Assembly: GCA_032718475.1 (NCBI GenBank)
Contig: JAUCBJ010002206.1
Span: 1-58,900, forward strand
From: Nemertoderma westbladi
Taxonomy: Eukaryota; Animalia; Xenacoelomorpha
Reading direction: 5' to 3'
DNA length: 58,900 bases
The position numbers were made by a program, and so were the translations under genes. Under the pieces are notes generated by a model. It saw nothing but the letters and a program-made list of their open reading frames with translations, had not been told where the DNA came from and did not search any database. Below are positions 5,464 to 58,900 of this stretch, one piece after another (position 1 is the stretch's first letter; each line of letters opens with the position of its first letter).

Positions 5464-6310
5464 TCAAGGAGTTGGGTTGGGGAGGGGTCTATATGCTTCC
5501 CTGACATATAACTTTGCAGCTGACATTTTTTTTGTCAGTGATGGCGATTTAAGTGGGGAACGTGGTGATTTCTGGATTGATACAGAATTCATACTAGATG
5601 TGGCACTACCGGATATGGCAGCAGAGGTAGATGCAGCTGTAGTGTTAGCAAGGGATGTAGCACTCCCCAGCCCAGCTCTGGTATTATGATCAAGGACCTT
5701 GTGAAGGGCAGAGTGGCCCTCGAACATATCCTGAGCATCCTGCATTTGTTGCTCCCCTGTCTGGGCCATTGACTTAAGTAAGTCGTGGGCATTAAATTTA
5801 TTCACAGTGGAAAATATGTAGTTCCTATGGCGGGTTATTGCACTATAGTAGAGGTAACTCGCTAGGCTATTCCTTGTGGAATCACAAGGAATTACTGAGG
5901 CTGCCGTTTCCATTACCTTTCTCACATTGGTTACCGATGGACAATATGATAATTGAAAATAATTATGGAACCTTGCTATTTCCTGTGTTACTGAAGACCC
6001 ATATATATTGCCACAGGAATTCACGAATACATATTCACAATTTGGTGACCCCGGTAATTGCTTGAGCCACTCGTTTCTGATAGTTTTAATATATGATTCA
6101 ATCATACTATACGTATCTGCATCAAGTACAACACCTGCATGGATTATGTCTTTGTTTTGTGATTTGCCGCAAGTATTAGATGCTGGTTTGATGGGGAAAC
6201 AAAGGCTTTATTTATTTGTTGATCGTTGAAACTCAGAGAGTTTCATGCAGCCAGCAACACTTGGCCTCTGCTGCTCACCAATACATATAAGACACGGTAT
6301 TGGAGCGGTA
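5464..6310 (-). pseudogene. Tyrosine recombinase pseudogene (HKT type), related to the YR at 51910-54029
   Basis: In order: QQRPSVAGCMKLSEF (catalytic R), ANHKTK in a shifted frame near 6150-6170 (K), YVFVNSCG, VTNVRKVMET (second R) and LASYLYYSAITRHRNY (H position degenerate, catalytic Y). Stops and frameshifts are present. Confidence 0.78.
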
Positions 6311-7344
6311 TCTCATGATGGCCTTCAGGGTGTGATTAAAACTATCGGACTGCAGTAAAGATGTCCGATTGGATCCTGTCTCCATAAGCCGAAACTCGAA
6401 GTATCAAATGAATGCCACCGAGATTTGTCGAATTTGAATGGAATCACTCGAAACCCATTTCAACGTTGTTTTGGGCCTTTTGTATTTGATAGGCCATTCT
6501 TGAGACCTTATACAACTGATCTACTATACATTTTTTTGATGTCTTCTGCTGCTGCTCTAAAGATGATTTCCATCGTAAGAGTTCAGTGGAACTATCCACA
6601 ATGAACCTTTGATAGTACCCCTCCCTCTGTAGATTTCCTTTTGTTGTACCTTCTTTCTAGCATTAAGATGGTTCTACCTACAATGTTATCCACAATTATT
6701 GCATCTTCTTCTGGCTCACTATCCGATTCCAATATGGCACACTTTCGTGGCCATTTTGGATTCGGAGAATTTGCAAAAAGAGTCCTTTTTGCTGAATTTA
6801 GAGCAGCAGCATAATCACATCGATCTCCTACGACTATCGAGCATGGGCTAATAAAATAAGCCCACGGTCGACTGAATCCATGACACCTGTTATATTCATC
6901 AGCCTAACATCAGCCTGCACCTCCACTGATCCTCCATCTGTGGTAAATGTGCATTCACCACTGATTGGTCCTGATGTGCCACCCTCTTGTTCCTATGCCC
7001 CTCCAAGTTCACCAAATAAACTATTAATAAAAATAAATATATAATAGCGTAAAAAGAATAAAGTTCGGAGACGTATATAATAATATAGTAAATATGATAT
7101 TATAAGTAATTACAAATATATATCGACGGTAATAGCCGTCATTATCAATGCATATAATCCTATACAGAAGTTGGGAGTAAGTGACCTAATTATTAATAAT
7201 GGAAATTGCATATTAAATAGTGAAATGGCACAAAATCGCACAGACCACACGACAAAACTGCTACATACTACTGTACTACAATAACAGTACTAAGTCCTAC
7301 ATACATACGAAAATACCCCCCCCCCCTTTTTTTTTCCCCGTTTC

Positions 7345-36800: not shown

Positions 36801-37300
36801 TGTCTACATGTATATTAAAGTCGCCTACCACAATTAGTCGCTCCTCACAGCAAAGCCATGGTTCGATGAATTTCGGGAATTCGTCAAAAAACGTTAAGCA
36901 TGTAATGGGATGAGCTGTACTATATGGTGGGCGGTATATAACGACCAAACATAGTTTGGTGTTAGAAGATTTAATGGACCATACTGAGTATTCGAATGAG
37001 CTATTTTCGTTAGTGCTGTGCAGTGTGTAGTGTAATGAGTCTTTTAGAATTACACCGGTGCCTCCACCAGGGCGGTTAAGCCGTGGTGAGTCATCGATAG
37101 TGTATCCCTTTGGAGCGCAAAGGTTCTTTGCCACTGTATCGTTAGCGCTGAACCAGGTTTCTGTTAGCGCGCATATGTCAATATTATTGTTGGAAATAAA
37201 TTCCACAATCTCGGCGCTTTTGTTTCGGGCTGACCTGGGGTTCATAATGCAAAGGTGAAGTGAGTTGCCAGGTAACATGTTGATATGAGTAATTACTTTA
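33883..37300 (-). mobile_element. L2-clade LINE with uninterrupted APE + RT ORF2 and complete 3' end
   Basis: NPRS, LTETW, YRPP, GDFN, TLDL and SDH (APE), then LLDLSSAFDTVDH, GFPQG, GYADD and LHWLPV (RT); stop at 34345. The 3' UTR ends in GCGCC...GGCGCTATACAAATGCATC(ATT)n. Confidence 0.93.
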
Positions 37301-37304
37301 GCAT

Positions 37305-39022
37305 TAACATTAGGTACTTTGCCGGGTGTCGCGACAACATTGGGTACATTAACATTAGCTACAATGCCGGGTGCCGCAACAACAATAGCATTTGGTACAT
37401 TCACATTAGGTACAGTGCCGGGTGTCGCAACACCATTGGGTACATTAACATTAGGTACAGTGCCGAGTGTCGCAACAACAATAACATTGGGTACATTAAC
37501 ATTAGGTACATTGCCGCGTGTCGCAACAACATTAACATTAGGTACAGTGCCGGGTGTCGCAACAACATTAACACAGGGTACATTAACATTAGGTACAATA
37601 CCGGGTGTCGCAACAACATTGGGTACATTTACATTAGGTACAGTGCCGGGTGTCGCAACAACATTAACACAGGGTACATTAACATTAGGTACAGTGCAGG
37701 TTGTCGCAACAGCATTATCACAGGGTACATTAACATTAGCTACAATGCCGGGTGTCGCAACAACAATAGCATTTGGTACGTTCACATTAGGTACAGTGCC
37801 GGGTGTCGCAACAACATTGGGTACATTAACATTAGGTACAGTGCCGAGTGTCGCAACAACAATAACATTGGGTACATTAACATTAGGTACATTGCCGCGT
37901 GTCGCAACAACATTAACATTAGGTACAGTGTCGGGTGTCGCAACAACATTAACACAGGGTACATTAACAGTAGGAATATTGCCGCGTGTCGCAACGACAT
38001 TAACATTAGGTACAGTGTCGGGTGTCGCAACAACAATAGCATTTGGTACATTCACATTAGGTACAGTGCCGGGTGTCGCAACAACATTGGGTACATTAAC
38101 ATTAGGCACAGTGCCGGGTGTCGCAACAATATTGGGTACATTAACATTAGGTACATTGCCGGGTGTCGCAACAACATTGGGCACCTTAACAGTAGGTACA
38201 GTGCCGGGTGTCGCAACAACATTAACACAGGGTACATTAACATTAGGTACAATGCCGGGTGTCGCAATAACATTAACACAGGGTACATTAACATTAGGTA
38301 CAATGCCGGGTGTCGCAACAACATTGGGTACATTAACATTAGGTACAATGCCGGGTGTCGCAACAACATTGGGTACATTAACATTAGGTACAATGCCGGG
38401 TGTCGCAACAACATTGGGTACATTAACATTAGGTACAGTGCCGGGTGACGCAACAACATTGGGTACATTAACATTAGGTACAGTGCCGGGTGTCGCAAAA
38501 ACATTGGGTACATTAACATTAGGTACAGTGCCGGGTGTCGCAACAACATTGGGTACATTAACAGTAGGTACAGTGCCGGGTGTCGCAACAGCATTTGGTA
38601 CATTAACATTAGATACAGTGCCGGGTGACGCAACAACATTGGGTACATTAACATTAGGTACAGTGCCGGGTGTCGCAAAAACATTGGGTACATTAACATT
38701 AGGTACAGTGCCGGGTGTCGCAACAACATTGGGTACATTAACAGTAGGTACAGTGCCGGGTGTCGCAACAGCATTTGGTACATTAACATTAGATACAGTG
38801 CCGGGTGTCGCAACAACAATAGCATTTGGTACATTCACGTTAGGTACAGTGCCGGGTGACGCAATAACATTGGGTACATTTACATTAGGTACAGTGCCGA
38901 GTGTCGCAACAACATTGTGTACATTAACATTAGGTACATTGCCGGGTGTCGCAACAACATTGGGTACATTAACAGTAGGTACAGTGCCAGGTGTCGCAAC
39001 AACATTAACACAGGGTACATTA
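37305..39022. repeat. 45-bp-based minisatellite (36/45/54-bp variants), in frame with L2 ORF2
   Basis: The - strand reads (NVNVPNVVATPGTVP)n and the + strand is open too. Unit length variants are multiples of 3. Confidence 0.95.
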
Positions 39023-40919
39023 AATTAATCTTTAAATTAATCTAATAAATCAACAACTAAAGCCCGGTTTCCATGATTTAACATAGCTACAGTACTATAG
39101 CTATAGTACTATATACTAATACTAGCTATAGTAATACTACAGCTGCAATAGTATTATACTAATTAATACTACAATAGTAATACTAACAGTTGGCCATGTC
39201 TCACAGCTACCTCCTACTGTATTTCAGATACTCTCATCCCGGTTTCACAACACTACTGCCGCTAAATGTGGAATGCCACAGTACTGGTTCTGCTGCTGCA
39301 AAACCTACAAAATCTATATATATAATTATATCAATCAAGAGATTAAATAATATTTTTATAATCTGAGGCGAATCGGAGCAGCACTTAGGCTGCTTAGCGA
39401 TAGTCCAGGAATTATAAAAATAATGGAAATAAAAACCAATACGAAAAAAAGGCAATTAAAAACTGGTATTGAAGAAAAAGATAATAAAAACCAGTAAGAA
39501 AAAGGCAAGTAAATCATGGTGATTAAAAAGAAAAGTCAAAACTTTTATAGGTAATGAAGAAAAATTGAATAGTAAAAACCAGGTAAAAAAAAGGCATTTA
39601 AAAACTGGTGATAAAATAAGAATGTAAAAACGAATAATAAAGAAATGGGAAGAAAACCAGTAAGAAAAAACGGCAAGTAAAGTAAAGTAAAAACTGATAG
39701 ATTGCACATTTCCCCTGCACAACCACATGATACCCCCTTGGTTTGGCCGCTGGTTCCTATTGATACTTTGGCCTTTCTATCTAAATCATGTACCGGTACT
39801 TCACACATTCATTTAAGTCTCTTTGGGTTGTGAAATGTGAACTCATAACTCAGTTCTACCCAGTAGTTACTGGTATGATTCACAACTCGTATCTTGTAGT
39901 TTAATTAGTTTAATTTAATTAGTTAGTTTAATTTTAATAGCGCTCATAGTACTTTCACACCTCTCATACTGTACTGATGTTACTCTTATTCCACTGTGCC
40001 ACTGTTTTAGTAGCATTCTTATACGTAGGCCTTATACGTAGGCCTTTCGTAGGTCAGGTTGACCTGAATTAATTAGTCTGTTGAATGTGTCAGTTTGTGT
40101 TTAACCCCTGTTTTTAGATCCCCCATCACCTCTGTCAGTAACGTCTTGGCTGTCAGGTTCCTATCTACTAGTGTAAAGTTCGGTGTGTCAGTGAGGAATG
40201 ACAAAGTATCCAAACTAAAGTCTCTAACATAGTGTTGTCAGTCAGTATTAAGTTCAGTAAAAGGCGTCATTAGGATGAGCCAATGGCAAACTGTAATTGT
40301 GGTATTGGTGCCACCCCTGTCCCGTGTCATGCAATTTTGCCATTGGATCAGCGACTCGTCACATGGTACAATCGTCGCCCCCCACATGCAGTCCTATACG
40401 TCCTCTGTATAATACCGTGGTGTCCGTGGCAATGTCATTTGCTCCACAAATTCCAGACCTAGAAAGGCGTGGTTGGAAAGGGATCGAGCAATATTGGATC
40501 TGATCTCTAGAACAAGAGTCTCCGAGTGTTTAACAGCTGTGAAGAGTCCGTGGTTTAGTGTGGCTTATAACTTGCCTTGGCTAATGGCGGATAGATCGAT
40601 GTCGACAGGTCTGCCCCCATCTCTGTCTCACCCAAAACCCCACCCCAGCCCCCACCCTCATGTCTCACCCCCACCTCCCACCCCACACCCTCACGCTCTG
40701 CCCCCCACTTACCAATCCCACCCATCCACTCTGTTCTAATCTAACCATCAATTAAATCTGTCTATTCTGGTACTCAACCGGCCTCTCTCAACCCATGCCC
40801 CCAACCCCTTGTCCCTCATGCCCCCCCCCCCCCCCCGCCCTCCACCCCCCAACGCCTACCCCCACACTCCACCCCACCCCATCCCCCACCCCATGCCCCA
40901 CCCGCCACCCCAACCTGGC

Positions 40920-41430: not shown

Positions 41431-41870
41431 CTAGTGCAATGCAACTTGCTCTGTCCGACATCACTAAGGTGTATGTCATCAGAGTGAAGCAAGGCTCCTC
41501 CCTGCAGCCGATGGCATAGAGCACCTTTCATGGCTATGATGCGGTCGTATTGGTTTTACCTCAGCCACGCCGCCATCCTGCTGTTTGTAGCCACACGCCA
41601 CGAATCAAAATCGGGGTCCACAGGTATTCTCTTCAGGCGCTTTGACCGCGGGACGATTTGTGCCCATAAATCAGAGGAGGCCTCATTGGGTGAATATTCT
41701 GTAATCATTGCCTTCAATTTGGTGACAACATAATCTGTCTCTCTCACACACAGATCGTTGCCTCCAAACATTATAACAATGATACAGGGTTTCTTCTCCC
41801 AATGTTTACTCCACTGGCTCCCCCACACAAAATTGTTGGCAGCAGTCATCCCACTCCATACCACATCCCA
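41430..41870 (-). pseudogene. SGNH/GDSL hydrolase pseudogene
   Basis: CIIVIMFGGNDL (block III), LWAQIVPR and, past the stop at 41556 in the same frame, LLHSDDIHLSDVGQ (block V DxxH). Similar to the copy at 2829-3197. Confidence 0.82.
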
Positions 41871-44800
41871 AAAAAATAGCAAGTGAATGGTCATCAATTA
41901 TTGTCAAACTTTCACTAATAAATAATTCGATTATGTTTGCATAAAAAACAGACATTAAGAAAATTTGGTTAGTATAATTATAAGTAGCTCAATGATGGTT
42001 CATTCACGTAAAATTCCTGAAGAGATTGATCACTTTAAAATTGCCAACCCTACCCAGCTGCAATACGATGGACAACAAGGTAGATGAGATAAATGATATA
42101 AAATTGAGATAAATTATTATATAGAAACAAAATGTTCCAGAACTATATATGTATATTTATTTAATAGAATAATTTAATTATCACAACTACATTTAAAAAT
42201 AAATGTATATAATTGTGTTAATTCTAATCATAACTGCAAATGTAACTTGGGGCAATATAAATATCACATTAAAAATCCTGACACGACCAAATGTATCTCA
42301 TTAAGATTTGTAAAAGAAAATTATAGGGATGAGAGGGTTTCCAAAAGAATTACTTTTCAGTAGCAGTTAGAAACATGAATTAATATAATATAATAGTAAT
42401 AATAATCATAAAATATGTAGTTAATTTCTTCAAACTTACTTCTATATAAATTGAAGTGATAAAGTTTGTCCTTCTTTATGATGGATGTTGTTATATGGAA
42501 CCTGGCAGGTTCTACCTGCTCCGTAGCTGCATCTATTACAGCAGACTGAGCCCATCCAGATATCACCCAACCACCGCGATATCTTTTCAGTTCGTTACGG
42601 ATGTGATTCCGTGCCTAATCATTAGTGACGGATTGATTGTGTCTGAGGCTATAAATAATTATTTATACACTAAATAACTAAATAATTTGGTACTAGGATG
42701 TTGTCAAAGATCTGATGGTGCGAATAAGCAGACTAATGGAAATAATCACGTTACTGTGGCAGGTTATTACAACCAAAACAATTAAATAAGTCAATATCAG
42801 GGGTTTCAGTTTATATGTATATTAATGACAAAAGATGAAACAAAGCTCTTAATAGCGTGGTAAAAGTCAGCACTTCTACAAAATACCCTATATTTCGGGC
42901 ACACAACTTATAGTGTAATAAAATGCGTTAACTAACATAACATAAGGCTTCATTATAGGTATCTGTACGCACTGATATGGGATTTGCGTCCAGTTTCTCA
43001 CCCTCTCCATATCTCGACGAGATACTAAAATATATGCCCGAGACCAATCTGTGATTGTGTATATATTTACTTTGGAGTTAATGTTAATCTTTATTTGATA
43101 GATATACCAAATCTGTTACTTGAAGTACATCTTTAGGGAAGAATAACATCGGAAATTCAGTGTTCGAAAACATGTGTGGTATAATAATGTTATCCTCCTT
43201 ATCAATTATCATCTTGTCCCATTTAGGTCGAAACGAGACTACCCACTCCTTGTGAACTGTGCGAAAGCATGGGCATGGTTGAACTCTAACCAGCCCATTG
43301 CCCCCTTGCTGGCGCAAACATAATCCATAGAAATCTGTATCAAAAATATATTTATATTATATGGAGAAAATATTTCGGCGAATGATTTAATAAATCCAAA
43401 ACATTTTCACAATGTTGTGCATGCTACAAAAACCTTGAATAATGCAACTCAACTCAAAGTTGGTTATGTTCTTCGGAAATTGGATAATTTAATCAGGTGT
43501 GAAGCCATTAAATCGCAGAATGCAGAAATTCAAGCACTGGTAAACAACTTCATGTGACTGTACAAGTGGCATGTCAAAATCTCATCTTCTTCTTTGTATA
43601 GAATGAAGAAATCCCATTTTAATAAAGTTGATGACCTTACAGAGGATATCCTTTCATTACACAATTATACTAGAGACGGCTTCAAGACGCCGTTAAGCAA
43701 GTCGGAAGTCATCAATCAAATGTAAATTCCATCAACAAGCTGTCATTGGTGTTATTTTACCATTGCGCCTATGGCGTTTTTTCATTAATCTCTATTTTTC
43801 GAGCCCACGGCTCATGGACGAAATAGCGGAACATACCAGGGACCTTAGAATCGCGGTATCTAGCTGCTGTGAAAATTTGATCAAAATCGTTAAGAGTAGT
43901 TTTGGCTGTAGATCAGTCAGTCAGCCAGTCAGTCAGCCAGTCAATCAGCCAACAATTCTTACAGTAATCAAGTTTTCAACCTTCAATTTGGTGACAACAA
44001 AATCTGTCTCTCTCACACACAGATCGTTGCCTCCAAACATTATAACAATGATACAGGGTTTCTTCTCCCAATGTCTACTCCACTGGCTCCCCCTCACAAT
44101 CTGGCCTCCCTGGTGACCCAGGGTTTGGGCCAGAAAGGAAATCAGTAAAGGGACTCACAAAATTGATGGCAGCAGTCATCCCACTCCATACCACATCCCA
44201 AAAAAATAGCAAGTGAATGGTCATCAATTATTGTCAAACTTTCAGTAATAAATAATTCGATTATGTTTGCATAAAAAACAGACATTTAGAAAATTTGGTT
44301 AGTATAATTATAAGTAGCTCAATGATGGTTCATTCACATAAAATTCCTGAAGAGATTGATCACTTTAAAATTGCCATCCCTACCTAGCTGCAATACGATG
44401 GACAACAAGGTAGATGAGATAAATGATATAAAATTGAGATAAATTATTATATAGAAACAAAATGTTCCAGAACTATATATGTGTATTTATTTAATAGAAT
44501 GATTTAATTATCACAACTACATTTAAAAATAAATGTATATAATTGTGTTAATTCTAATCATACCACAAACAGCTTTCAAATAAAAAAACTATTTAGGTAG
44601 AAGAATAACTGCAAATGTAACTTGGGGCAATATAAATATCACATTAAAAATCTTGACACGACCAAATGTATCTCATTAAGATTTGTAAAAGAAAATTATA
44701 GGGATGAGAGGGTTTCCAAAAGAATTACTTTTCAGTAGCAGTTAGAAACATGAATTAATATAATATAATAGTAATAATAATCATAAAATATGTAGTTAAT

Positions 44801-47800
44801 TTCTTCAAACTTACTTCTATATAAATTGAAGTGATAAAGTTTGTCCTTCTTTATGATGGATGTTGTTATATGGAACCTGGCAGGTTCTACCTGCTCCGTA
44901 GCTGCATCTATTACAGCAGACTGAGCCCATCCAGATATCACCCAACCACCGCGATATCTTTTCAGTTCGTTACGGATGTGATTCCGTGCCTAATCATTAG
45001 TGACGGATTGATTGTGTCTGAGGCTATAAATAATTATTTATACACTAAATAACTAAATAATTTGGTACTAGGATGTTGTCAAAGATCTGATGGTGCGAAT
45101 AAGCAGACTAATGGAAATAATCACGTTACTGTGGCAGGTTATTACAACCAAAACAATTAAATAAGTCAATATCAGGGGTTTCAGTTTATATGTATATTAA
45201 TGACAAAAGATGAAACAAAGCTCTTAATAGCGTGGTAAAAGTCAGCACTTCTACAAAATACCCTATATTTCGGGCACACAACTTATAGTGTAATAAAATG
45301 CGTTAACTAACATAACATAAGGCTTCATTATAGGTATCTGTACGCACTGATATGGGATTTGCGTCCAGTTTCTCACCCTCTCCATATCTCGACGAGATAC
45401 TAAAATATATGCCCGAGACCAATCTGTGATTGTGTATATATTTACTTTGGAGTTAATGTTAATCTTTATTTGATAGATATACCAAATCTGTTACTTGAAG
45501 TACATCTTTAGGGAAGAATAACATCGGAAATTCAGTGTTCGAAAACATGTGTGGTATAATAATGTTATCCTCCTTATCAATTATCATCTTGTCCCATTTA
45601 GGTCGAAACGAGACTACCCACTCCTTGTGAACTGTGCGAAAGCATGGGCATGGTTGAACTCTAACCAGCCCATTGCCCCCTTGCTGGCGCAAACATAATC
45701 CATAGAAATCTGTATCAAAAATATATTTATATTATATGGAGAAAATATTTTGGCGAATGATTTAATAAATCCAAAACATTTTCACAATGTTGTGCATGCT
45801 ACAAAAACCTTGAATAATGCAACTCAACTCAAAGTTGGTTATGTTCTTCGGAAATTGGATAATTTAATCAGGTGTGAAGCCATTAAATCGCAGAATGCAG
45901 AAATTCAAGCACTGGTAAACAACTTCATGTGACTGTACAAGTGGCATGTCAAAATCTCATCTTCTTCTTTGTATAGAATGAAGAAATCCCATTTTAATAA
46001 AGTTGATGACCTTACAGAGGATATCCTTTCATTACACAATTATACTAGAGACGGCTTCAAGACGCCGTTAAGCAAGTCGGAAGTCATCAATCAAATGTAA
46101 ATTCCATCAACAAGCTGTCATTGGTGTTATTTTACCATTGCGCCTATGGCGTTTTTTCATTAATCTCTATTTTTCGAGCCCACGGCTCATGGACGAAATA
46201 GCGGAACATACCAGGGACCTTAGAATCGCGGTATCTAGCTGCTGTGAAAATTTGATCAAAATCGTTAAGAGTAGTTTTGGCTGTAGATCAGTCAGTCAGC
46301 CAGTCAGTCAGCCAGTCAATCAGCCAACAATTCTTACAGTAATCAAGTTTTCAACCTTCAATTTGGTGACAACAAAATCTGTCTCTCTCACACACAGATC
46401 GTTGCCTCCAAACATTATAACAATGATACAGGGTTTCTTCTCCCAATGTCTACTCCACTGGCTCCCCCTCACAATCTGGCCTCCCTGGTGACCCAGGGTT
46501 TGGGCCAGAAAGGAAATCAGTAAAGGGACTCACAAAATTGTTGGCAGCAGTCATCCCACTCCATACCACATCCCAAAAAAATAGCAAGTGAATGGTCATC
46601 AATTATTGTCAAACTTTCAGTAATAAATAATTCGATTATGTTTGCATAAAAAACAGACATTAAGAAAATTTGGTTAGTATAATTATAAGTAGCTCAATGA
46701 TGGTTCATTCACGTAAAATTCCTGAAGAGATTGATCACTTTAAAATTGCCATCCCTACCTAGCTGCAATACGATGGACAACAAGGTAGATGAGATAAATG
46801 ATATAAAATTGAGATAAATTATTATATAGAAACAAAATGTTCCAGAACTATATATGTGTATTTATTTAATAGAATGATTTAATTATCACAACTACATTTA
46901 AAAATAAATGTATATAATTGTGTTAATTCTAATCATACCACAAACAGCTTTCAAATAAAAAAACTATTTAGGTAGAAGAATAACTGCAAATGTAACTTGG
47001 GGCAATATAAATATCACATTAAAAATCCTGACACGACCAAATGTATCTCATTAAGATTTGTAAAAGAAAATTATAGGGATGAGAGGGTTTCCAAAAGAAT
47101 TACTTTTCAGTAGCAGTTAGAAACATGAATTAATATAATATAATAGTAATAATAATCATAAAATATGTAGTTAATTTCTTCAAACTTACTTCTATATAAA
47201 TTGAAGTGATAAAGTTTGTCCTTCTTTATGATGGATGTTGTTATATGGAACCTGGCAGGTTCTACCTGCTCCGTAGCTGCATCTATTACAGCAGACTGAG
47301 CCCATCCAGATATCACCCAACCACCGCGATATCTTTTCAGTTCGTTACGGATGTGATTCCGTGCCTAATCATTAGTGACGGATTGATTGTGTCTGAGGCT
47401 ATAAATAATTATTTATACACTAAATAACTAAATAATTTGGTACTAGGATGTTGTCAAAGATCTGATGGTGCGAATAAGCAGACTAATGGAAATAATCACG
47501 TTACTGTGGCAGGTTATTACAACCAAAACAATTAAATAAGTCAATATCAGGGGTTTCAGTTTATATGTATATTAATGACAAAAGATGAAACAAAGCTCTT
47601 AATAGCGTGGTAAAAGTCAGCACTTCTACAAAATACCCTATATTTCGGGCACAAAACTTACAGTGTAATAAAATGCGTTAACTAACATAACATAAGGCTT
47701 CATTATAGGTATCTGTACGCACTGATATGGGATTTGCGTCCAGTTTCTCACCCTCTCCATATCTCGACGAGATACTAAAATATATGCCCGAGACCAATTT

Positions 47801-50327
47801 GTGATTGTGTATATATTTACTTTGGAGTTAATGTTAATCTTTATTTGATAGATATACCAAATCTGTTACTTGAAGTACATCTTTAGGGAAGAATAACATC
47901 GGAAATTCAGTGTTCGAAAACATGTGTGGTATAATAATGTTATCCTCCGTATCAATTATCATCTTGTCCCATTTAGGTCGAAACGAGACTACCCACTCCT
48001 TGTGAACTGTGCGAAAGCATGGGCATGGTTGAACTCTAACCAGCCCATTGCCCCCTTGCTGGCGCAAACATAATCCATAGAAATCTGTATCAAAAATATA
48101 TTTATATTATATGGAGAAAATATTTCGGCGAATGATTTAATAAATCCAAAACATTTTCACAATGTTGTGCATGCTACAAAAACCTTGAATAATGCAACTC
48201 AACTCAAAGTTGGTTATGTTCTTCGGAAATTGGATAATTTAATCAGGTGTGAAGCCATTAAATCGCAGAATGCAGAAATTCAAGCACTGGTAAACAACTT
48301 CATGTGACTGTACAAGTGGCATGTCAAAATCTCATCTTCTTCTTTGTATAGAATGAAGAAATCCCATTTTAATAAAGTTGATGACCTTACAGAGGATATC
48401 CTTTCATTACACAATTATACTAGAGACGGCTTCAAGACGCCGTTAAGCAAGTCGGAAGTCATCAATCAAATGTAAATTCCATCAACAAGCTGTCATTGGT
48501 GTTATTTTACCATTGCGCCTATGACGTTTTTTCATTAATCTCTATTTTTCGAGCCCACGGCTCATGGACGAAATAGCGGAACATACCAGGGACCTTAGAA
48601 TCGCGGTATCTAGCCGCTGTGAAAATTTGATCAAAATCGTTAAGAGTAGTTTTGGCTGTAGATCAGTCAGTCAGCCAGTCAGTCAGCCAGTCAATCAGCC
48701 AACAATTCTTACAGTAATCAAGTTTTCAACCTTCAATTTGGTGACAACAAAATCTGTCTCTCTCACACACAGATCGTTGCCTCCAAACATTATAACAATG
48801 ATACAGGGTTTCTTCTCCCAATGTCTACTCCACTGGCTCCCCCTCACAATCTGGCCTCCCTGGTGACCCAGGGTTTGGGCCAGAAAGGAAATCAGTAAAG
48901 GGACTCACAAAATTGTTGGCAGCAGTCATCCCACTCCATACCACATCCCAAAAAAATAGCAAGTGAATGGTCATCAATTATTGTCAAACTTTCACTAATA
49001 AATAATTCGATTATGTTTGCATAAAAAACAGACATTAAGAAAATTTGGTTAGTATAATTATAAGTAGCTCAATGATGGTTCATTCACGTAAAATTCCTGA
49101 AGAGATTGATCACTTTAAAATTGCCATCCCTACCCAGCTGCAATACGATGGACAACAAGGTAGATGAGATAAATGATATAAAATTGAGATAAATTATTAT
49201 ATAGAAACAAAATGTTCCAGAACTATATATGTGTATTTATTTAATAGAATAATTTAATTATCACAACTACATTTAAAAATAAATGTATATAATTGTGTTA
49301 ATTCTAATCATACCACAAACAGCTTTCAAATAAAAAAACTATTTAGGTAGAAGAATAACTGCAAATGTAACTTGGGGCAATATAAATATCACATTAAAAA
49401 TCCTGACACGACCAAATGTATCTCATTAAGATTTGTAAAAGAAAATTATAGGGATGAGAGGGTTTCCAAAAGAATTACTTTTCAGTAGCAGTTAGAAACA
49501 TGAATTAATATAATATAATAGTAATAATAATCATAAAATATGTAGTTAATTTCTTCAAACTTACTTCTATATAAATTGAAGTGATAAAGTTTGTCCTTCT
49601 TTATGATGGATGTTGTTATATGGAACCTGGCAGGTTCTACCTGCTCCGTAGCTGCATCTATTACAGCAGACTGAGCCCATCCAGATATCACCCAACCACC
49701 GCGATATCTTTTCAGTTCGTTACGGATGTGATTCCGTGCCTAATCATTAGTGACGGATTGATTGTGTCTGAGGCTATAAATAATTATTTATACACTAAAT
49801 AACTAAATAATTTGGTACTAGGATGTTGTCAAAGATCTGATGGTGCGAATAAGCAGACTAATGGAAATAATCACGTTACTGTGGCAGGTTATTACAACCA
49901 AAACAATTAAATAAGTCAATATCAGGGGTTTCAGTTTATATGTATATTAATGACAAAAGATGAAACAAAGCTCTTAATAGCGTGGTAAAAGTCAGCACTT
50001 CTACAAAATACCCTATATTTCGGGCACACAACTTATAGTGTAATAAAATGCGTTAACTAACATAACATAAGGCTTCATTATAGGTATCTGTACGCACTGA
50101 TATGGGATTTGCGTCCAGTTTCTCACCCTCTCCATATCTCGACGAGATACTAAAATATATGCCCGAGACCAATCTGTGATTGTGTATATATTTACTTTGG
50201 AGTTAATGTTAATCTTTATTTGATAGATATACCAAATCTGTTACTTGAAGTACATCTTTAGGGAAGAATAACATCGGAAATTCAGTGTTCGAAAACATGT
50301 GTGGTATAATAATGTTATCCTCCTTAT
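41711..50327. repeat. Tandem array of a 2375-bp unit (about 3.7 copies) carrying SGNH and YR gene fragments
   Basis: Identical ORFs at 42357, 44732, 47107 and 49482. Junctions near 43980, 46355 and 48730. The first unit is about 106 bp shorter, and there are few substitutions between units. Confidence 0.97.
43360..43760 (+). pseudogene. N-terminal (core-binding-region) fragment of a second-family tyrosine recombinase; repeated near 45735 and 48110
   Basis: DLINPKHFHNVVHATKTL...LKVGYVLRKL...CEAI...NNFM*LYKWHVKISS.SL..MKKSHFNK..DLTEDI..LHNY resembles the region preceding the catalytic domain in the family seen at 25555-25790. Confidence 0.6.
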
Positions 50328-50560
50328 TAGGGTTCGATCGGTGCACCGGCACCGGCACCGGTATTGCCGGTGTTTGGCACCACCGGCACCGGCACCTGCA
50401 CCGGCAAAAACATTGCCGGTGCCGGTGTTTTTTAAAATTATTTGCTGCTGTTCAAATTGAAGCCTACTACAGTACCGGTACTGCAGACAGCCTGGCTAAG
50501 CTATCAGTCAGCTACCGGTACAAGGCTATAGCCAGATAGCTGTCTTACTGTCTACCGGTA
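50328..50560 (+). mobile_element. Probable DNA-transposon terminus (hAT-like MITE) truncating the array
   Basis: Abrupt switch to TAGGGTTCGATCGG followed by clustered CACCGG/CCGGTG subterminal repeats. The partner end was not found. Confidence 0.5.
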
Positions 50561-50754
50561 CTGGACTGGTCTAGCAGTCTAGTGATAGTCAGATAGTGGC
50601 TGAGTGGTAGTGTAGTGCAGTAGTTTGTGATTGTGATGATATACGGTACTGTCAGGGCAGGGTCAGCAGTCAGCCTGTATTAGTGTTATATTGTATAATG
50701 TATGAATGAATATAAAAAAAACAATACGATGGGATAATACTGTAATTAATAAGC

Positions 50755-51779
50755 GGACAATTCCGACCCGAACACTTGCGACCCGGAAAATCCAACACCG
50801 ACAATTCCGACCCGAACACTTGCGACCCGGAAAATCCAACACCGACAATTCCGACCCGAACACTTGCGACCCGGAAAATCCAACACCGACAATTCCGACC
50901 CGAGCACTTGTGACCCGGAAAATCCAACACCGACAATTCCGACCCGAACACTTGCGACCCGGAAAATCCAACACCGACAATTCCGACCCGAACACTTGCG
51001 ACCCGGAAAATCCAACACCGACAATTCCAACCCGAACACTTGCGACCCGGAAAATCCAACACCGACAATTCCGACCCGAACACTTGCGACCCGGAAAATC
51101 CAACACCGACAATTCCGACCCGAACACTTGCGACCCGGAAAATCCAACACCGACAATTCCGACCCGAACACTTGCGACCCGGAAAATCCAACACCGACAA
51201 TTCCGACCACCAAACCGACAATTCCGACCCGAACACTTGCAACCCGGAAAATCCAACACCGACAATTCCGACCCGACCACTTGCGACCCGGAAAATCCAA
51301 CACCGACAATTCCGACCCGAACACTTGCGACCCGGAAAATCCAACACCGACAATTCCGACCAGAACACTTGCGACCCGGAAAATCCAACACCGACAATTC
51401 CGACCCGAACACTTGCGACCCGGAAAATCCAACACCGACAATTCCGACCCGAACACTTGCGACCCGGAAAATCCAACACCGACAATTCCGACCACCAAAC
51501 CGACAATTCCGACCCGAACACTTGCGACCCGGAAAATCCAACACCGACAATTCCGACCCAAACACTTACGACCCGGAAAATCCAACACCGACAATTCCGA
51601 CACGACCACTTGCGACCCGGAAAATCCAACACCGACAATTCCGACCCGAACACTTGCGACCCGGAAAATCCATCACCGACAATTCCGACCCGAACACTTG
51701 CGACCCGGAAAATCCAACACCGACAATTGCGGCCCAATTAAGTTTCATGGATATTTTAGTGGGTCGGAATTAGCTGTCC
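50755..51779. repeat. 44-bp minisatellite (about 22 copies) bounded by short inverted ends
   Basis: Unit CGACAATTCCGACCCGAACACTTGCGACCCGGAAAATCCAACAC. The left end GGACAATTCCGACCC is mirrored by GGGTCGGAATTAGCTGTCC at 51761-51779. Confidence 0.9.
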
Positions 51780-51909
51780 TTGTTAATAAGCATTTAGACT
51801 ATTTGTAGTAAATCGTTCTTAATTAAAATTTATCGCTATTTTACATTATGTAATATTCGATATACTGTGCTCGTTTATAAGTTGTTCGCTGCAAGAAGTC
51901 AATAAAATC

Positions 51910-54029
51910 TCAATCTATATTATTATGTGGGTAGGATATAGGGTTGATTGTCTGGGTCATAATTAATTGACAGTATACCATAAACACCAACAACAAAATT
52001 TTATAGTAGCACATTATAATTTGCATTGTTTGTGTTTTTATGGTGGTGATATAATAAATATTAATAAATAAATAATATTGGCCTGAGGTCAAAACAAAAC
52101 TATAATTATATAAATAAAAAACAAACTTTTCTCTTGAAGGTGAAACGTCTATAGCATTGGAATCTGGTCCTGTAGCATTGGAATCTGGTCCTATAGCATT
52201 GGAATCTGGTCCTATAGCATTGGAATCTGGTCCTGTAGCATTGGAATCTGGTCCTATAGCATTGAAATCTGGTCCTATAGCATTGGAATCTGGTCCTATA
52301 GCATTGGAATCTGGTCCTGTAGCATTGGAATCTGGTCCTATAGCATTGGAATCTGGTCCTGTAGCATTGGAATCTGGTCCTGTAGCATTGGAATCTGGTC
52401 CTGTAGCATTGGAATCTGGTCCTGTAGCATTGGAATCTGGTCCTGTAGCATTGGAATCTGGTCCTGTAGCATTGGAATCTGGTCCTATAGCATTGGTGTC
52501 TGGAGCAGTAGAACCAGGATGTGAAAGAGCAAAGTTGAATGCCCTTTGATGTCTATCACGTGCTGATAAAGCCTCACTGGTTGACTGAACAGCCTCATAT
52601 ATCCGTAATTGTGTTTCCCTAGAATGACCCATTGAGTGAGCAGCGTTTTCTTTTTCATGGACTTCTCCTGGTAGTCTTTGGTTGAAAAAACTCTTGGCGT
52701 GCCGAAAACTAGTCGATCCTGCCTTCGACTTGGAACCTGGGACGAGTTTTTGCCACAGGTTATTAAGTGGGATGCTGGTGTTGTTAAGTTGCTCTCCATT
52801 ACGTGTCACAAATACGAAACTTGAATCAGAAGACAACGTACGAGAAGTGTATAATGTGCGACCGATATAAACCCATTTCTTTAATAAAACGTAATCCTTA
52901 TAGCTAATGATAATTTTCTGTGGTCCATAAAATCCTGAGGTCTTGTGATTTGGTACTTGAAAAATAAACACATTATTACCGCTGATATCTGTGGTTACAA
53001 AACCCTCCTTGAAATGTTTCACTTTTAAGTTCTTTACAACACACTCTCGCAATCCCAGGTCGTATATTATTAGACTTATAAGATACGTTTGCATTTCTGT
53101 CAGTTCGTCTTTGTCATCAACGTCAGGTAACCTTGTAATATTGTCGCGAATTTTATCAATATATGAAGACGTCTGAAACTTATTTATCTCCTCAGCTGTA
53201 GGCATGGTTTCCGTAGCCCTTTGGCGAACTGTATAGGCGTGCTTTCTAACATCGGACTTCTGTCGCCGTTGTAAATCTTTTGTCACTGTCAGGCCTTTCA
53301 CGGCCCCGCTAACATCATTTAAGACAAGAAATTCAAAGTATCTCTGAAGTCTCCTTAGTACGGCTTTCAGTGTATTGGCAGACCGGGTGCCACCACCACG
53401 AATTTTCTCAGAAGCTACTTGACAGTATGCATTATGTAATTTTTGTGGATCACTTATCTCATCGAACCTTAGTATGTAGTTCTCTTTATTATCACCCATA
53501 TGTTTAAAGAATGTTCTCACACTCGAAGCTATCATTAAGATATCCCTCTCTCTTTCTTTTAATGATTCTTCATTATAATCTGCTTTCAAATAATCCATAA
53601 ATTGATCCATCATAGGAGGTTCACCTGGTTCACCAGCGTCAATAGCAGGTAGTATATAACGACTTGGATCATGTAACATTCGTTCACGCTCTGGATCTCC
53701 GGGTAGAAGATTGTGTTTACAAGTCAGATGGTCACCAATCTTATAAAAACATTTATTGCAAATTAAGCACCGCGATATTCGACGATTCGGTTTCTTTTTA
53801 CCACTTTTATATAATCTTATCACACCAGATTTCTTAAAATATAGTTCTTTACTCTCCAGAGACAGCCGGCTTAAAACCCCGGCATGTTGTATTTGGTGTC
53901 GATTGCGTAGATGATCATTAATTCGAAGCGTTTCTTTGTGACAGAGTTTACAGATTCTAGGTATATGAGAGTCTTTTGATTTTTGTGGCATGGAAACATC
54001 ATCACAATCTCCATTGGTATCAATGCAAT
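51910..54029 (-). CDS. Large exon encoding two C2H2-like zinc fingers + tyrosine recombinase + PDSNATG repeats
   Basis: CKLC..INDHLRNRH and CLIC..IGDHLTCKH fingers. YR motifs GLRE (R, about 53048), NHKT (K), FVFVTRNG, TSFRH (R) and AHSMGHSRETQLRIY (H, Y). No internal stops. The acceptor ttctccgtag at 54030 is in frame with MPQK. The true 3' end after about 52140 is uncertain. Confidence 0.9.
52150..52497. repeat. 21-bp coding tandem repeat (PDSNA[T/I]G)n, about 16 copies
   Basis: TAGCATTGGAATCTGGTCC(TG/TA) repeated in frame. Confidence 0.95.
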
Positions 54030-54995
54030 CTACGGAGAAAAAAACAAATTATATAATGAAGTATAAATAATTTGAATACTGGAGGGCTTATCTGAACGAA
54101 GTTAATGTATAATCAACTCAATATATAACTGACTGGGACTGTATTGTCGAGCCACGAAGTGAGCGAAGCCTTAGCATATGGGTACCATTAACGAGTTGTC
54201 TGTCGTAGTCGTCACATGTCTAACTTTTGATCACTAATAACTTTGTAATTCCTTGATGATATTAAACCAAACTTTGTATGTACTGTATGTAGTACGTCAA
54301 AAGTTTAGAAAGAATATGAGGTTTGGTCAAAAATCAGACAGTCTGTCAGTCGGTACCGGTAGGTATTCTAGCGGTACCGCATCACTTCGTCTAGGTTTAA
54401 TAACTTTAGCATTGCATCAATTTTGATGAAACTTTCACAGATTGACGTATGGAATATTCGTAATTCAATGAGTACATAGAACTCGTTTATATACTCATTC
54501 ATGTCATACTCGTTTATAGCTTCCCACAATTTCACGGTCCGTCACTAGGAGGCGCTAAATATCCACTTCGTCTAGACGCCGTACCTGGGCGGGAAATTTA
54601 CAAATTGTCCCTCCATCCACTAATTGCATTCATAAGAGAGGCAGGTGTATGCTGGCCCGGTTGATGTTTACATACTTACTGTATATAGAAGCTCAGCTGA
54701 GAAGTGGATTGGTTGCAAGTACTATAGATTACAGCTTCTCAGGTTAACTGAGTCTCGTGCTGCGCGAAAGCCCCACAAACATGTATCTTACTGTATTTAC
54801 GCGAATAAGTTATACCCCACCCACCCCGCCCGGGGGTGGGGTATAGGCAGGGCCGCATTTAGGAAAAGACCAACTACGCCAGAAATAGTAAATAATAAAT
54901 GTAGTATAACTAGTAGGCTAAATTATATATTACCAACAAACTGAGGGGGTAGATTCTGGGGTCTAATCTACGCCGCTAACAGATATGATACCAAC

Positions 54996-56152
54996 CATTC
55001 TGCTGGGTCGTAGCCGCATCAAACTCCTCCTGTGTCGTGGCCGCATCAAACTCCTCCTGTGTCGTGGCCGCATCAAACTCCTCCTGTGTCGTGGCCGCAT
55101 CAAACTCCTCCTGTGTCGTGGCCGCATCAAACTCCTCCTGTGTCGTGGCCGCATCAAACTCCTCCTGTGTCGTGGCCGCATCAAACTCCTCCTGTGTCGT
55201 GGCCGCATCAAACTCCTCCTGTGTCGTGGCCGCATCAAGCTCCTGAAAAATATCACCGACACCCTGGTAACATGTGTCATTGTTGGCCATCTGTTGCATG
55301 GCAATGCCTGCGTTCGGCAGTGTAGTTGGTTGTGGAACATCATGCCACGATGCAGAAGCGTTAACCGATGGATCTGCGTTAAAATATAGGACAACAAAAT
55401 ATACAATCACAGTAAGGAAGGATGGAATGTGCCCTTTGTTATGAAACTGGCGTTTGTGACACTTAGAAAAACACCATCGACATTTGAACGGACTCTAAGC
55501 AAGATTATATTTTACTTCTCGATATATGGCTTGGCTGTCTGTCTGTCTACCCGATAGTCTATTTTATAAAGTTTAAATACCGGTACCTCCATGTTTTTCT
55601 GAACTTCCATCATCTTCATCCAATAAACTTTCTAGTTCTTCTAAGTCAGGTGGTATTTCTGAACTTCCATCAACTTCATCCAATAAACTTTCTGGTTCTT
55701 CTAAGTCAGGTGGTGCGACGCTGTTATCTGTAATAAATTAATTGGTGTTGAGCTAATGAAACTAAAAATTAAGGAACAGTCATGTTTCAGGTGCCGAAAA
55801 ATGCTACACCAGACCAGACCGTACAGTTACGTATACAAGTATACAATTAATACAGCAATACAGAATTACTAAAATATTATTAATTTATGAGTTTGTACAG
55901 TGAATTTGAACAGGCTAGGGGGGGGGGGGGGGGGGGAGCTAGAGTATTATTGGTTCATTATTTTGGGCATGGTTAGTCAGCCCCCAATCCTAATTAAAAC
56001 TGTCATGCAAAAATGCTCAATGCTTACATAGGGTTAGGTATTTGACTAAAAATGCTGGTACCGGTAACAAAATTCACCTGACTCACCTCGATCGAGATCT
56101 AGCCCCAACTCAATAAGAGTATTTCGATTGTGAATTGTATTAACCGGTGTAT
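54996..56152 (-). CDS. Upstream phase-1 exons of the YR gene: 56087-56152, 55587-55727, 54996-55373 (acidic, repeat-containing)
   Basis: Lengths of 66, 141 and 378 bp are all multiples of 3. All have AG/GT borders and open phase-1 frames that join in frame to the exon starting at 54029. They contain a 60-bp duplication (PPDLEE.ESLLDE.DGSSE) and a 27-bp repeat (DAATTQEEF) of about 9 copies. Confidence 0.7.
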
Positions 56153-56953
56153 CTATTCGCCCGGACGAATAAACGAATGAACCCCTGCAAATATATAAAG
56201 TTCATTGCAGGACGCAATTCACTGAATTTCAGGGCGTACAGTTCTCTTAAATACCGGTAGGCCTATATCAGATCTGTACATATTATCATATAAATAAGAA
56301 AAATATATAATAATTAATAATAACATAATAATAATAATATATAATAATAGCCATACATCCATGAAAAAATTTAGCTTCCTATACGTTAGGCGTAATTTGG
56401 GACATCATATAGGCTATAGGTTTAAAAAATAAATATTGTGATTGTAAAAAAATAGTATGACTAATAAATAAATAAAGGATACAAAGACTGCAACAGCCGA
56501 ACACTGACTGTTCAGATGTTAGCTATACCGGTACCTCTGAAAACTGAAAATAGTAAAAAAAAAGCATTTTAGACTGCCCACACTGGTACACGCAACTGTT
56601 TGTGCTTTACTATTTTCAGTTTTTTGTCTGTCTGTATCAGTAGGCTACCTGTTGTAGCATACTGATCACTGATGCGCTTTGAAATCACCCAATATACAAA
56701 ACTAGCAACTAGTACATTTTACACCCTACACATTTTACCCTGTACATTTTTCACATATTTTTCTAAAATGTTTTATGTCCCAAATTCCCCCAGTTGACCC
56801 TATCTTTAATTCAATGACCACCTAAACCTAACAATGAGACCAGTATTACATCGCCCTAACCTACTACCGGTATTGTAGACTCACTCATTCACATAAGGAG
56901 ATATATTTTAACCAGCCAATATGATGCTCATGCCTTTACATCATAGTTCTTAC

Positions 56954-57869
56954 CTTTGAACGGGAACAACTGCTCTTTTTTTCGAAGGTGTAAAGCAATC
57001 CTTGGCTCTAATCAATTGTTCCTCCGCCAGGTTGAACGAATCTGTAATATAAATTAAACTCATGGTACCGTTATCTAAAGTAAAGCATAGTACTGTAGTA
57101 GGTCGTCAACCCGGTCCCACTTGGTGTAGTGGTAAAACTGGTAACAGTTAAATACCTTGGTGTAGTGGTTGCATTTGCATTGAATTCACATCTCTCTGTA
57201 GGTCGCGGGTTCAATCCCCCCCCCCCCCCCCCCCCCCACATGCCACATGGGCAAGGGCAGTTTTCGTTTCGGCACGAATGCTTTAAAGGGGACTAGCCAG
57301 GGCGCATCTGAGCCTTTCATCCTTAATTGGTAGCTAAATGGGTACAGGTACTGCAGTTTCCTCTGGGGAGTAAAGTTCTGGGGGGACCGCACTGGAAATA
57401 AGTCGTCAGACTTTGTGTGTAAACCCGCCCCCGGCCTAACGGCCGAAGAAAATTTACTTCACTTTACTTTAGGGCTACCGGCGCCGGCAGACCGGTACTT
57501 TTTACAGTGTTTTACTAAAAATATCTGCCGGTAGGTAAAGGTCTGCCAGGCTACCCTACCTGTCACCTGTACAGGCAGACATGTACCGGTAATTATTCAG
57601 TAGAGCTAGACAGCTAGAGGCTTACCTTTTTGATCGATAATAAAAACATCGTAATGTTCCCAGTCCAGCATATCAGATGGTTCCAACATTGATTGTTTCC
57701 TAAGTTTTTTAAACTTTTCATTAGATAATCTCTGGATGTTTGAAGGGTAAGGGCAGTAAGTTACCCGTACCGTTTCGCCATTTCCATCCACCTCATTATC
57801 AGTCGACAACCAACGGGTCGGGACTGTTAATAGACTATTATCGACAATAAACTTCACCACGGAGAACAT
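56954..57869 (-). CDS. First two exons (57626-57869, 56954-57041) encoding an N-terminal domain like that of DUF4806-type proteins
   Basis: MFSVVKF...LTVPTRWL...CPYP...P....WEHY, gtaag donor, then an in-frame join to DSFNLAEEQLIRAK and another gtaag donor. The link to the YR exons needs one phase-2-to-1 exon. Confidence 0.62.
57157..57470 (+). mobile_element. tRNA-derived SINE in an intron
   Basis: A box TGGTGTAGTGG, B box GGTTCAATCC, central GAGCCTTTCATCCTT..GGTAGCTAAATGGGTAC segment, and a (TTTAC)n-like tail. Confidence 0.7.
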
Positions 57870-58900
57870 TATGCCAAGCGCCAAGGTTAATTATGTAGGC
57901 CTAAAGGAAATGCATTTAGGAAATGCGCAAATGTGAAGTTAAGGGCTAAATGCTGAAATGCTTTACAGCTTTAGGCTGTTAGGCCTACGACTTTCATTCA
58001 GACTACCGGTAAGAGAGAACAAGTTTGCAGCACTGCATTTACTGTACTACCATGGCCATGGTACTACTGCATTAACGCGGATGAATATTACAACAATACA
58101 ACAGAAATCTAATATTCCATTAAGACAATGATGAACTTCAATTATATTGCTTTGAAAACACCTGTTTTCAAGATAAAGATTTAATATGATAACTTTCATA
58201 CCAGTAGCCAAACGTAACATATTTAGAATGACAAAATTATTCTCTTCAAAATATCCTATTTCAAAATCAAAAACAATTTAACCCAGCAAAATATGTCTTA
58301 GGGCGTACTACATTATTAACGAAATTGTGATAAGGGGGGGGGGGGGGGGGGGGGGGGTGGTGGTGGTGCTGCCGGGTAGTGGCCTACGTAGTATTCTTCA
58401 CATGGGGAAAACTGCGAAGTGAAATATAACAGCAGAAAGTTTGGTGTACTTTACATGACGTTAGTTATTGAATTGGGAAACTACTTGTTTGGGGTATGAA
58501 TTCGGATATGATTACAAATGAAAAAATAATGTTACAAACGTTTAAATAGACTAACGCGAAATGATATATCTCAAATCTATATAAAGTGTCCATATAGGGT
58601 AACTTTATATCAACACTAAATGGCCAGTATTATACAGTATGTAGTTCCAGGCACACAGGCATACCGAGATATCAAACTTTATTTGATATGGCCATAGTGG
58701 CAAATTTCGACGGAATTGGGTAAGTCTCAAAGGTCACAGTTTCCATACAGTGAAAACACATAAATCAGGGAAATAAGTATTCTTATAGCTGGAAAAATGT
58801 CCCTTTTGGTATAGAGTAAAAAGCGATGAGATGACGCTTTTAATTATTCATCATTGATCATTCATTATTCGTCATCACGTTATTCTAACCAAAATAATAA

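What the first reader, a model, noticed from the sequence alone, without database searches (positions are those of the whole stretch)
51910..57869. Apparently intact, multi-exon zinc-finger / tyrosine-recombinase gene in an animal genome
Seen in the sequence: the 693-aa ORF has all the ordered YR catalytic positions (R in GLRE, K in NHKT, R in TSFRH, H in MGHS, Y in LRIY) behind two C2H2-like fingers. It is preceded by an in-frame acceptor and a chain of phase-1 exons (54996-55373, 55587-55727, 56087-56152), with two more exons further upstream. No RT/RNase H lies next to it, so it is not a DIRS/Ngaro layout. Inference: this is a spliced recombinase of about 950-1000 aa with an unusual architecture (DUF4806-like N-domain, acidic repeats, ZnF, YR, repeat tail). 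It could be the mobilising enzyme of a Crypton-like or larger element, or a domesticated gene.
Basis: partly seen in the sequence, partly recalled or inferred. Interest (0 to 1): 0.85.

Follow-up and report, generated by a model that had tools for sequence, protein, structure and literature searches.

The report
Spliced recombinase of repeat-targeting transposon family
An unbroken gene in an animal genome, predicted to be spliced from six exons, encodes a predicted Cre-like DNA cut-and-rejoin enzyme with two zinc fingers; it is likely the engine of a jumping element from a widespread, little-described family whose relatives appear to insert into simple DNA repeats.

Summary
The gene is real. 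Six exons with GT-AG sites (exon 3 starts at 56184, not 56152) give one open 1,022-codon frame; one run that behaves like RNA shows the first intron spliced. The large exon folds like Cre/XerH (pLDDT 86, Z 16.6) and keeps R, K, R, H and Y; the His of HxxR is Thr, as in most relatives. It belongs to a broad animal family of two-finger tyrosine recombinases (57 relatives, 23-33% identity; Hydra, anemone, Artemia, fish) that includes an endogenous nimavirus integrase, a type already described with a C2H2 domain. Relatives in 80 metagenome loci stand alone in non-coding DNA; four have the same upstream acidic repeat exons, and two near-identical 10.5-kb copies part at an (AG)n run, as described for CryptonV. 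So the layout is family-typical; only the exon 1-2 module found no relative, and 'DUF4806-like' is unconfirmed. Ends, target and copy number of this copy could not be determined (no genome held). A deleted form with an early stop exists in one run. The scan has reported similar elements in other genomes. New member of a known, poorly documented kind.

The parts
57626..57869 (-). Exon 1 (ATG at 57869); 81-aa module with no identified relative
   Evidence: Open frame, donor AAG|GTAAGC; joined to exon 2 in a contig of run X4, whose cover here ends at 58023; no Pfam match, no homolog
56954..57041 (-). Exon 2 (88 nt, phase 1 to 2)
   Evidence: Exact 584-nt GT-AG skip 57041/57626 in X4, 89 letters on the shorter side
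56087..56184 (-). Exon 3 (98 nt, phase 2 to 1), predicted; corrected start
   Evidence: Of the acceptors tried only 56184 keeps the frame (56221 is phase-compatible only with a donor at 56145); the base after exon 2 in the X4 contig is G, as this acceptor needs
55587..55727 (-). Exon 4, predicted; two 60-nt acidic repeats
   Evidence: alternative donor at 55581
54996..55373 (-). Exon 5, predicted; nine 27-nt acidic repeats
51910..54029 (-). Exon 6: two fingers, recombinase, repeat tail, A+T-rich run-on to the stop
   Evidence: Acceptor with 11 of 12 pyrimidines
53896..53952 (-). Zinc finger 1 (C-x2-C-x9-H-x4-H), predicted
53713..53769 (-). Zinc finger 2 (C-x2-C-x9-H-x4-H), predicted
52543..53619 (-). 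Core-binding plus catalytic tyrosine recombinase domains; R 53049, K 52944, R 52704, H 52626, Y 52599
   Evidence: AlphaFold2 pLDDT 85.9; Foldseek Cre/Tre E 4e-6; VIA Z 16.6 to XerH, 15.6 to Cre over 298 residues; family profile hits XerA E 1e-12
52152..52503 (-). Coding 21-nt tandem repeat tail (16.8 copies)
53976..57757 (.). 3,782-nt stretch absent from one X4 contig (non-canonical join with 12 filler bases; in frame but with a stop at the join)

Best explanation
This open, predicted six-exon gene encodes a predicted Cre-like tyrosine recombinase with two zinc fingers and is likely the transposase of a CryptonV-like DNA transposon that would cut and rejoin its own ends and insert at a short repeated target. 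Shown: the frame, the residues, one splice junction, family membership. Inferred from established tyrosine recombinase chemistry: the conserved Tyr (794 in the model) would form a 3'-phosphotyrosine link, four subunits would exchange strands through a Holliday junction, the element would leave as a circle and recombine with a target that matches its terminal motif. Inferred from relatives: the target would be a microsatellite, telomere-like or other multicopy motif, and the element about 8-11 kb or more with this as its only gene. The fingers would act as an arm- or target-binding domain; the acidic repeat exons are likely a disordered linker. The target and ends of this particular copy are unknown.
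For: Fold and residues. Family: 57 of 58 phmmer hits cover the recombinase; 25 of 58 hit PF00589 weakly; named members in Hydra, Actinostola, Artemia, Gambusia, Paramormyrops, and one cluster holds BDT61756.1, the recombinase of Marsupenaeus japonicus endogenous nimavirus (27% over 247 aa plus both fingers). Mobility of relatives: L007 and L008 are 99.9% identical over 10,460 nt up to an (AG)n run and unrelated after it; L017 shares the last 8 bases before its own (AG)n run; L032, L050, L073 and L079 have a short-motif array ending at a CT/AG run. Layout: 4 of 19 loci examined carry in-frame acidic repeats 2-5 kb upstream on the same strand. No viral gene among 76 flanking ORFs scanned. A second, decayed family member lies in this window, and a deleted form exists in X4. 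CryptonV is said to insert in microsatellites (PMC8869645, passage).
Against: No end, target repeat or second close copy of this element was found: no microsatellite run of AG, AC or telomere type lies near the gene and the window stops 1 kb upstream. The context loci belong to a subgroup only about 20-25% identical to this protein, so their behaviour is borrowed. AG/CT runs alone are not clearly enriched (4 of 14 clusters with 3 kb downstream, 2 of 13 upstream), and the L007/L008 split could be an assembly error at the repeat. All 4 listed differences in exon 6 are synonymous, which also fits a host gene. The helical C-terminal region seen in the subgroup alignment was not found downstream.
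Confidence: 0.62

Rival explanations
1. An immobilised, host-maintained (domesticated) recombinase that has kept its active site and gained or kept a special N-terminal module; it would act on host repeats or as a DNA-binding factor.
For: The unique parts of the locus are present in three runs tagged DNA from two samples and two studies. 4 of 4 listed differences in exon 6 are synonymous (rough chance 0.006). Introns 1 and 5 hold high-copy repeats and an insertion with an 8-bp duplication sits just 3', yet the frame is open. One intron is spliced.
Against: Purifying selection is also expected among active transposon copies. The one X4 contig that holds exon 6 has an early stop. No close ortholog exists in 1.8 billion representatives (best E 4e-9). 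Described domesticated Crypton recombinases mostly lose the catalytic residues (PMC3212892, abstract). 3 of 3 listed differences in the small exons change the amino acid.
Confidence: 0.15
2. The six-exon mRNA is not made: exons 1-3 belong to a separate small gene or element, and the recombinase exon is expressed from its own ATG (53991) or only from rearranged copies.
For: Only intron 1 has read support; the X4 contig that bears exon 6 reaches exon 1 by a non-canonical join. No relative has an exon-1-like module (0 hits in 80 loci). Donors of exons 4 and 5 are weak (5 and 6 of 9).
Against: The chain uses the strongest donors of the region and closes in frame through five introns. Relatives show the same acidic upstream exons. 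The large exon has a strong acceptor in phase 1.
Confidence: 0.13
3. The integrase at the edge of a much larger cargo element or endogenous large DNA virus, like nimaviral recombinases or Starship captains.
For: A nimaviral recombinase is in the family, and some nimaviral recombinase genes are multi-exon. The window ends 1 kb upstream, so cargo cannot be excluded on that side.
Against: Downstream 50 kb holds LINEs, piggyBac-like and LTR remnants and tandem arrays, no viral genes among the 12 ORFs scanned. The protein does not group with the nimaviral one in the tree (quick tree, deep nodes unresolved). No family locus in viral contigs. No DUF3435 match.
Confidence: 0.1

Closest known systems
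Telomere- and 28S-associated tyrosine recombinases of endogenous nimaviruses (Kawato et al., PMC10871703; abstract, passages, sections 15 and 26 read)
   Same: C2H2 domain, SAM-like core-binding domain and catalytic domain; five of seven key residues; some genes multi-exon; detectable sequence similarity to BDT61756.1.
   Different: Only 27% identical, not sisters in the tree; no viral genes seen nearby; extra N-terminal module, acidic repeats and repeat tail.
CryptonV (Kapitonov and Jurka 2012, Repbase Reports; not seen, known through one sentence and the title in PMC8869645 and a table in PMC4455052)
   Same: Recombinase-only DNA transposons from cnidarians, some inserted in microsatellites; this family has Hydra and anemone members and loci that end at (AG)n.
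   Different: No CryptonV sequence or domain description was available, so membership is untested; no target repeat is visible for this copy.
CryptonA/I/F/S and DUF3504 genes (PMC3212892; parts 1-2 of 7 read)
   Same: Recombinase without RT; proposed circle excision and integration.
   Different: No DUF3504, GCR1_C or NDC10_II match in the query or 58 hits; animal CryptonA/I are described without a C-terminal domain; Kawato et al. place the nimaviral-type enzymes apart from these four groups.
Cre, XerH, XerA recombinases (PDB 1crx, 5jjv, 5hxy)
   Same: Two-domain fold over about 298 residues and order of catalytic residues.
   Different: 11-17% identity; Thr in place of the HxxR His; zinc fingers and introns.

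Membership tests
Tyrosine recombinase superfamily | Core-binding plus catalytic fold | tested here: met
   (Z 16.6, rmsd 4.3, 298 aligned)
Tyrosine recombinase superfamily | R, K, HxxR, H/W, Y in order | tested here: met
   R, K, R, H, Y present; first His is Thr as in 40 of 58 family rows; activity untested
Nimaviral-type two-finger YR family | C2H2 domain plus SAM-like domain plus YR, with sequence similarity | tested here: met
Endogenous nimavirus | Gene lies among nimaviral core genes | tested here: inconclusive
   None seen in 12 window ORFs scanned; upstream side outside the window
CryptonV | Sequence groups with Repbase CryptonV recombinases | not testable with these tools
   No CryptonV sequence held; 3 papers name the term
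CryptonV | Inserted in a microsatellite | tested here: inconclusive
   Seen for relatives, not for this copy, whose ends are unknown
CryptonV | Multi-copy mobile unit with the recombinase as only enzyme | tested here: inconclusive
   No genome held; deleted form in X4; depth uninformative
CryptonA/CryptonI | Recombinase of the DUF3504-related group | tested here: not met
   No DUF3504 match in query or 58 hits
CryptonF | C-terminal GCR1_C domain | tested here: not met
DIRS/Ngaro retrotransposons | Adjacent RT-RNase H | tested here: not met
   Nearest RT is a LINE endonuclease-RT ORF ending at 39024, about 13 kb away; upstream side beyond 58900 unseen
Starship captains | DUF3435 recombinase | tested here: not met
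   No PF11917 match; DUF3435 clusters appear only at rank 10-12 in the feature search
DUF4806 proteins | DUF4806 match in the N-terminal exons | tested here: not met
   No Pfam family for exon 1 or 2 at E 0.01; a likeness to N-terminal modules of such proteins is recalled only

The most novel reading that the evidence does not exclude
A deep-branching repeat-targeting recombinase has captured a new N-terminal module and is now kept by the host with its active site intact: an expressed, selected animal gene able to carry out site-specific DNA rearrangement.
Probability: 0.1. Interest if true: 0.85.

Novelty: new member of a known kind. Interest (0 to 1): 0.38.

Why it matters
Intact eukaryotic tyrosine recombinases that work in animal nuclei and prefer repeats are rarely documented: in the searches run here the family appears in print only as a Repbase note (CryptonV, if it is the same group) and as nimaviral integrases. 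An open, transcribed member at about 25% identity to its nearest relatives widens the family and is a candidate for testing how such enzymes choose targets. The data also suggest that nimaviral integrases belong to a large family of host-borne transposons. This copy adds no new mechanism unless domestication is shown.

Tried and rejected
No whole genome is held, so copy number, ends and dN/dS across copies were not obtained. Word-index protein searches found nothing for the exon-6 protein, the alignment or exon 1. Single-sequence folding failed (pLDDT 33.8). Pfam gives the query no recombinase match; its YadA and Gp350 hits are the repeat tail, and P0001 is a spurious phmmer hit. No RNA holder was listed; X4 is tagged 'DNA?' and its RNA nature is inferred from exon-only unique cover and a GT-AG join, so a processed DNA copy is not excluded. 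X4 has no cover over exons 4-5; this is not used as evidence. Contig depth over exon 6 is 4-7 times that of the upstream introns in X1 and X3 but only 1.2-2 times in X2, the same sample as X3, so it was not used as copy number. Exon 3 starts at 56152, 56182 and 56183 were rejected. The 44-bp array was first considered a subterminal repeat of this element and rejected because it has its own 8-bp target duplication. No locus close to the query in metagenome contigs and none of the family in viral contigs. The tree (quick search, 62 of 76 rows kept, 14 short rows dropped, no Crypton, DIRS or Starship outgroups available) is star-like and places the query on a long unresolved branch. Feature search with exon 1 gave only unnamed 65-77-aa clusters at 0.94-0.95 with a low recognition value: weak. 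Paper searches; 'CryptonH' gave 0 papers. Only 3 supplementary files of PMC10871703 were held as text and gave only review correspondence; its alignments and trees, and Repbase Reports, were not seen and may already include close relatives.

Full report
Observation. The minus-strand frame 51910-54048 is open for 712 codons. Taking exons 57869-57626, 57041-56954, 56184-56087, 55727-55587, 55373-54996 and 54029-51910 gives one frame of 1,022 codons with GT-AG at all five introns. The last ~80 codons are 74% A+T and may be read-through past an unrecognised donor.

Read evidence. Six runs were listed, none on record as RNA; four were laid. X1-X3 cover introns and exons alike. X4 covers unique sequence only in exons, holds a contig that skips exactly 57042-57625 with GT-AG ends, and stops at 58023 where the other runs go on: it behaves like RNA, which supports intron 1 and a start about 150 nt upstream of the ATG. 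The other four introns are untested. A second X4 contig joins 57758 to 53975 through 12 filler bases, a 3,782-nt deletion that stays in frame but puts a stop at codon 42. All 4 listed differences in exon 6 are synonymous (rough chance 0.006), all 3 listed in the small exons are not; the table was cut (26 rows not shown), so these counts are partial.

The protein. Pfam misses it, but phmmer over 1.8 billion representatives gave 58 hits, 57 over the recombinase region at 23-33% identity; 25 of 58 match PF00589 weakly and none matches DUF3504, DUF3435, GCR1_C or NDC10_II. The family profile finds XerA, XerC-like and XerD structures. With that alignment AlphaFold2 gives pLDDT 85.9, and the model matches Cre/Tre by Foldseek and XerH and Cre by VIA at Z 16.6 and 15.6 over 298 residues. 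R644, K679, R759, H785 and Y794 of the spliced model are kept; the His of HxxR is Thr in the query and in 40 of 58 rows, so this is a family trait, not decay. Finger histidines are conserved in nearly all rows that reach them.

The family. Of 30 clusters looked up, 6 carry organism names: Hydra, Actinostola, Artemia (fused to SET), Gambusia, Paramormyrops and Penaeus japonicus, the last with BDT61756.1, the recombinase of an endogenous nimavirus. That protein aligns with the query over the catalytic domain (27%, 247 aa) and both fingers. Kawato et al. (PMC10871703; abstract, passages, sections 15 and 26) describe these enzymes with a C2H2 domain, a SAM-like domain and five of seven key residues, some multi-exon, tied to insertion in telomere repeats or 28S rDNA, distinct from CryptonA/F/I/S, DIRS and Enterprise, with further relatives not linked to viruses. 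CryptonV was not in their listed set; it is named as a microsatellite-inserting group from cnidarians (PMC8869645, passage). The tree leaves the query on a long unresolved branch.

Context of relatives. A tighter alignment of 8 relatives returned 80 loci in 43 clusters. In 22 of 80 the fingers and recombinase sit in one frame of 700 aa or more. Among 76 flanking ORFs scanned, matches were to other transposons, a kinase and an OB domain, none viral. In 4 of 19 loci with long upstream flank there is an in-frame acidic tandem repeat (period 39, 81, 87 or 108) 2-5 kb upstream on the same strand; the one other array passing the filter (period 148) is not open. This is the window's layout. L007 and L008 are 99.9% identical for 10,460 nt up to an (AG)n run and unrelated after it; L017 and L006 have related bases before their own (AG)n runs 3.5-5 kb downstream; four more loci have a motif array that ends at a CT/AG run. 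Against this, runs are found in only 4 of 14 clusters with 3 kb downstream and 2 of 13 upstream, an assembly error at the repeat is possible, and these loci are only distantly related to the query (E 1e-9 at best).

This copy's surroundings. Downstream lies a 1,029-bp array of 44-bp units (50754-51782) flanked by the same 8 bases on both sides, a separate insertion; then 420 bp ending at 50328, where a 2,375-bp tandem array breaks off. No target repeat or paired end was found, and the window ends 1 kb upstream of the ATG. A decayed second family member lies at about 5467-6312.

Mechanism. Shown: gene, fold prediction, residues, one junction, family. From established chemistry and the Crypton model (PMC3212892, parts 1-2 of 7; PMC9977147, passages on active CryptonF recombining a terminal motif with a matching target): cleavage by the Tyr, strand exchange, circle, integration. 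Inferred from relatives: a repeat target. I give this 0.62; domestication 0.15; no full-length mRNA 0.13; integrase of a larger element or virus 0.10.

Novelty. It works like a Crypton-type recombinase and is a member of the two-finger family that includes nimaviral integrases; CryptonV membership is likely but untestable here. The only part without a relative is the exon 1-2 module. Earlier scan notes report similar elements in other genomes; they are unchecked leads. Verdict: new member of a known but thinly documented kind, interest 0.38.

Noticed in passing
window 5467-6312 (-): Broken second recombinase of the same family (profile E 1e-10; hhalign 93.6%), with no DNA similarity to the intact gene.
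   Followed up: partly
window 50754-51782: MITE-like insertion made of 22 copies of a 44-bp unit, with imperfect inverted ends and an 8-bp direct repeat at 50746-50753 and 51783-51790; that 8-mer occurs 3 times in the window.
   Followed up: partly
window 41826-50327: About 3.6 tandem units of 2,375 bp at 97-99% identity. Each full unit holds a stop-broken frame (43324-43716 +) that from recall resembles the core-binding part of another animal recombinase family; no Pfam match, untested.
   Followed up: partly
window 50328-50427: The tandem array breaks off at a GC-rich hairpin-rich stretch whose first bases could be a hAT-like terminus (recalled) or one telomere-like unit; no partner end in the window. 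A possible 3' end of the element.
   Followed up: partly
window-wide, 11 of 20 between 50473 and 58011: The palindrome TACCGGTA occurs 20 times against 0.7 expected; at 55578 other runs lack 6 of these bases. Possibly excision footprints of a TA-targeting transposon (inference); the one at 55578 alters the exon-4 donor.
   Followed up: partly
window 34345-39024 (-): Open 1,559-codon LINE endonuclease-RT frame preceded in frame by about 590 codons of a 45-bp repeat.
   Followed up: no
window 54148-54360, 54727-54785, 57170-57430, 58390-58460: Very high-copy short repeats inside introns 5 and 1 and upstream of the gene.
   Followed up: no
P0061, P0062, P0023: Artemia family members fuse the recombinase to a SET domain.
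   Followed up: no
L033 4233-4306: Telomere-type CCCTAA repeats 360 nt after a family recombinase, absent from the 92% identical L016.
   Followed up: no
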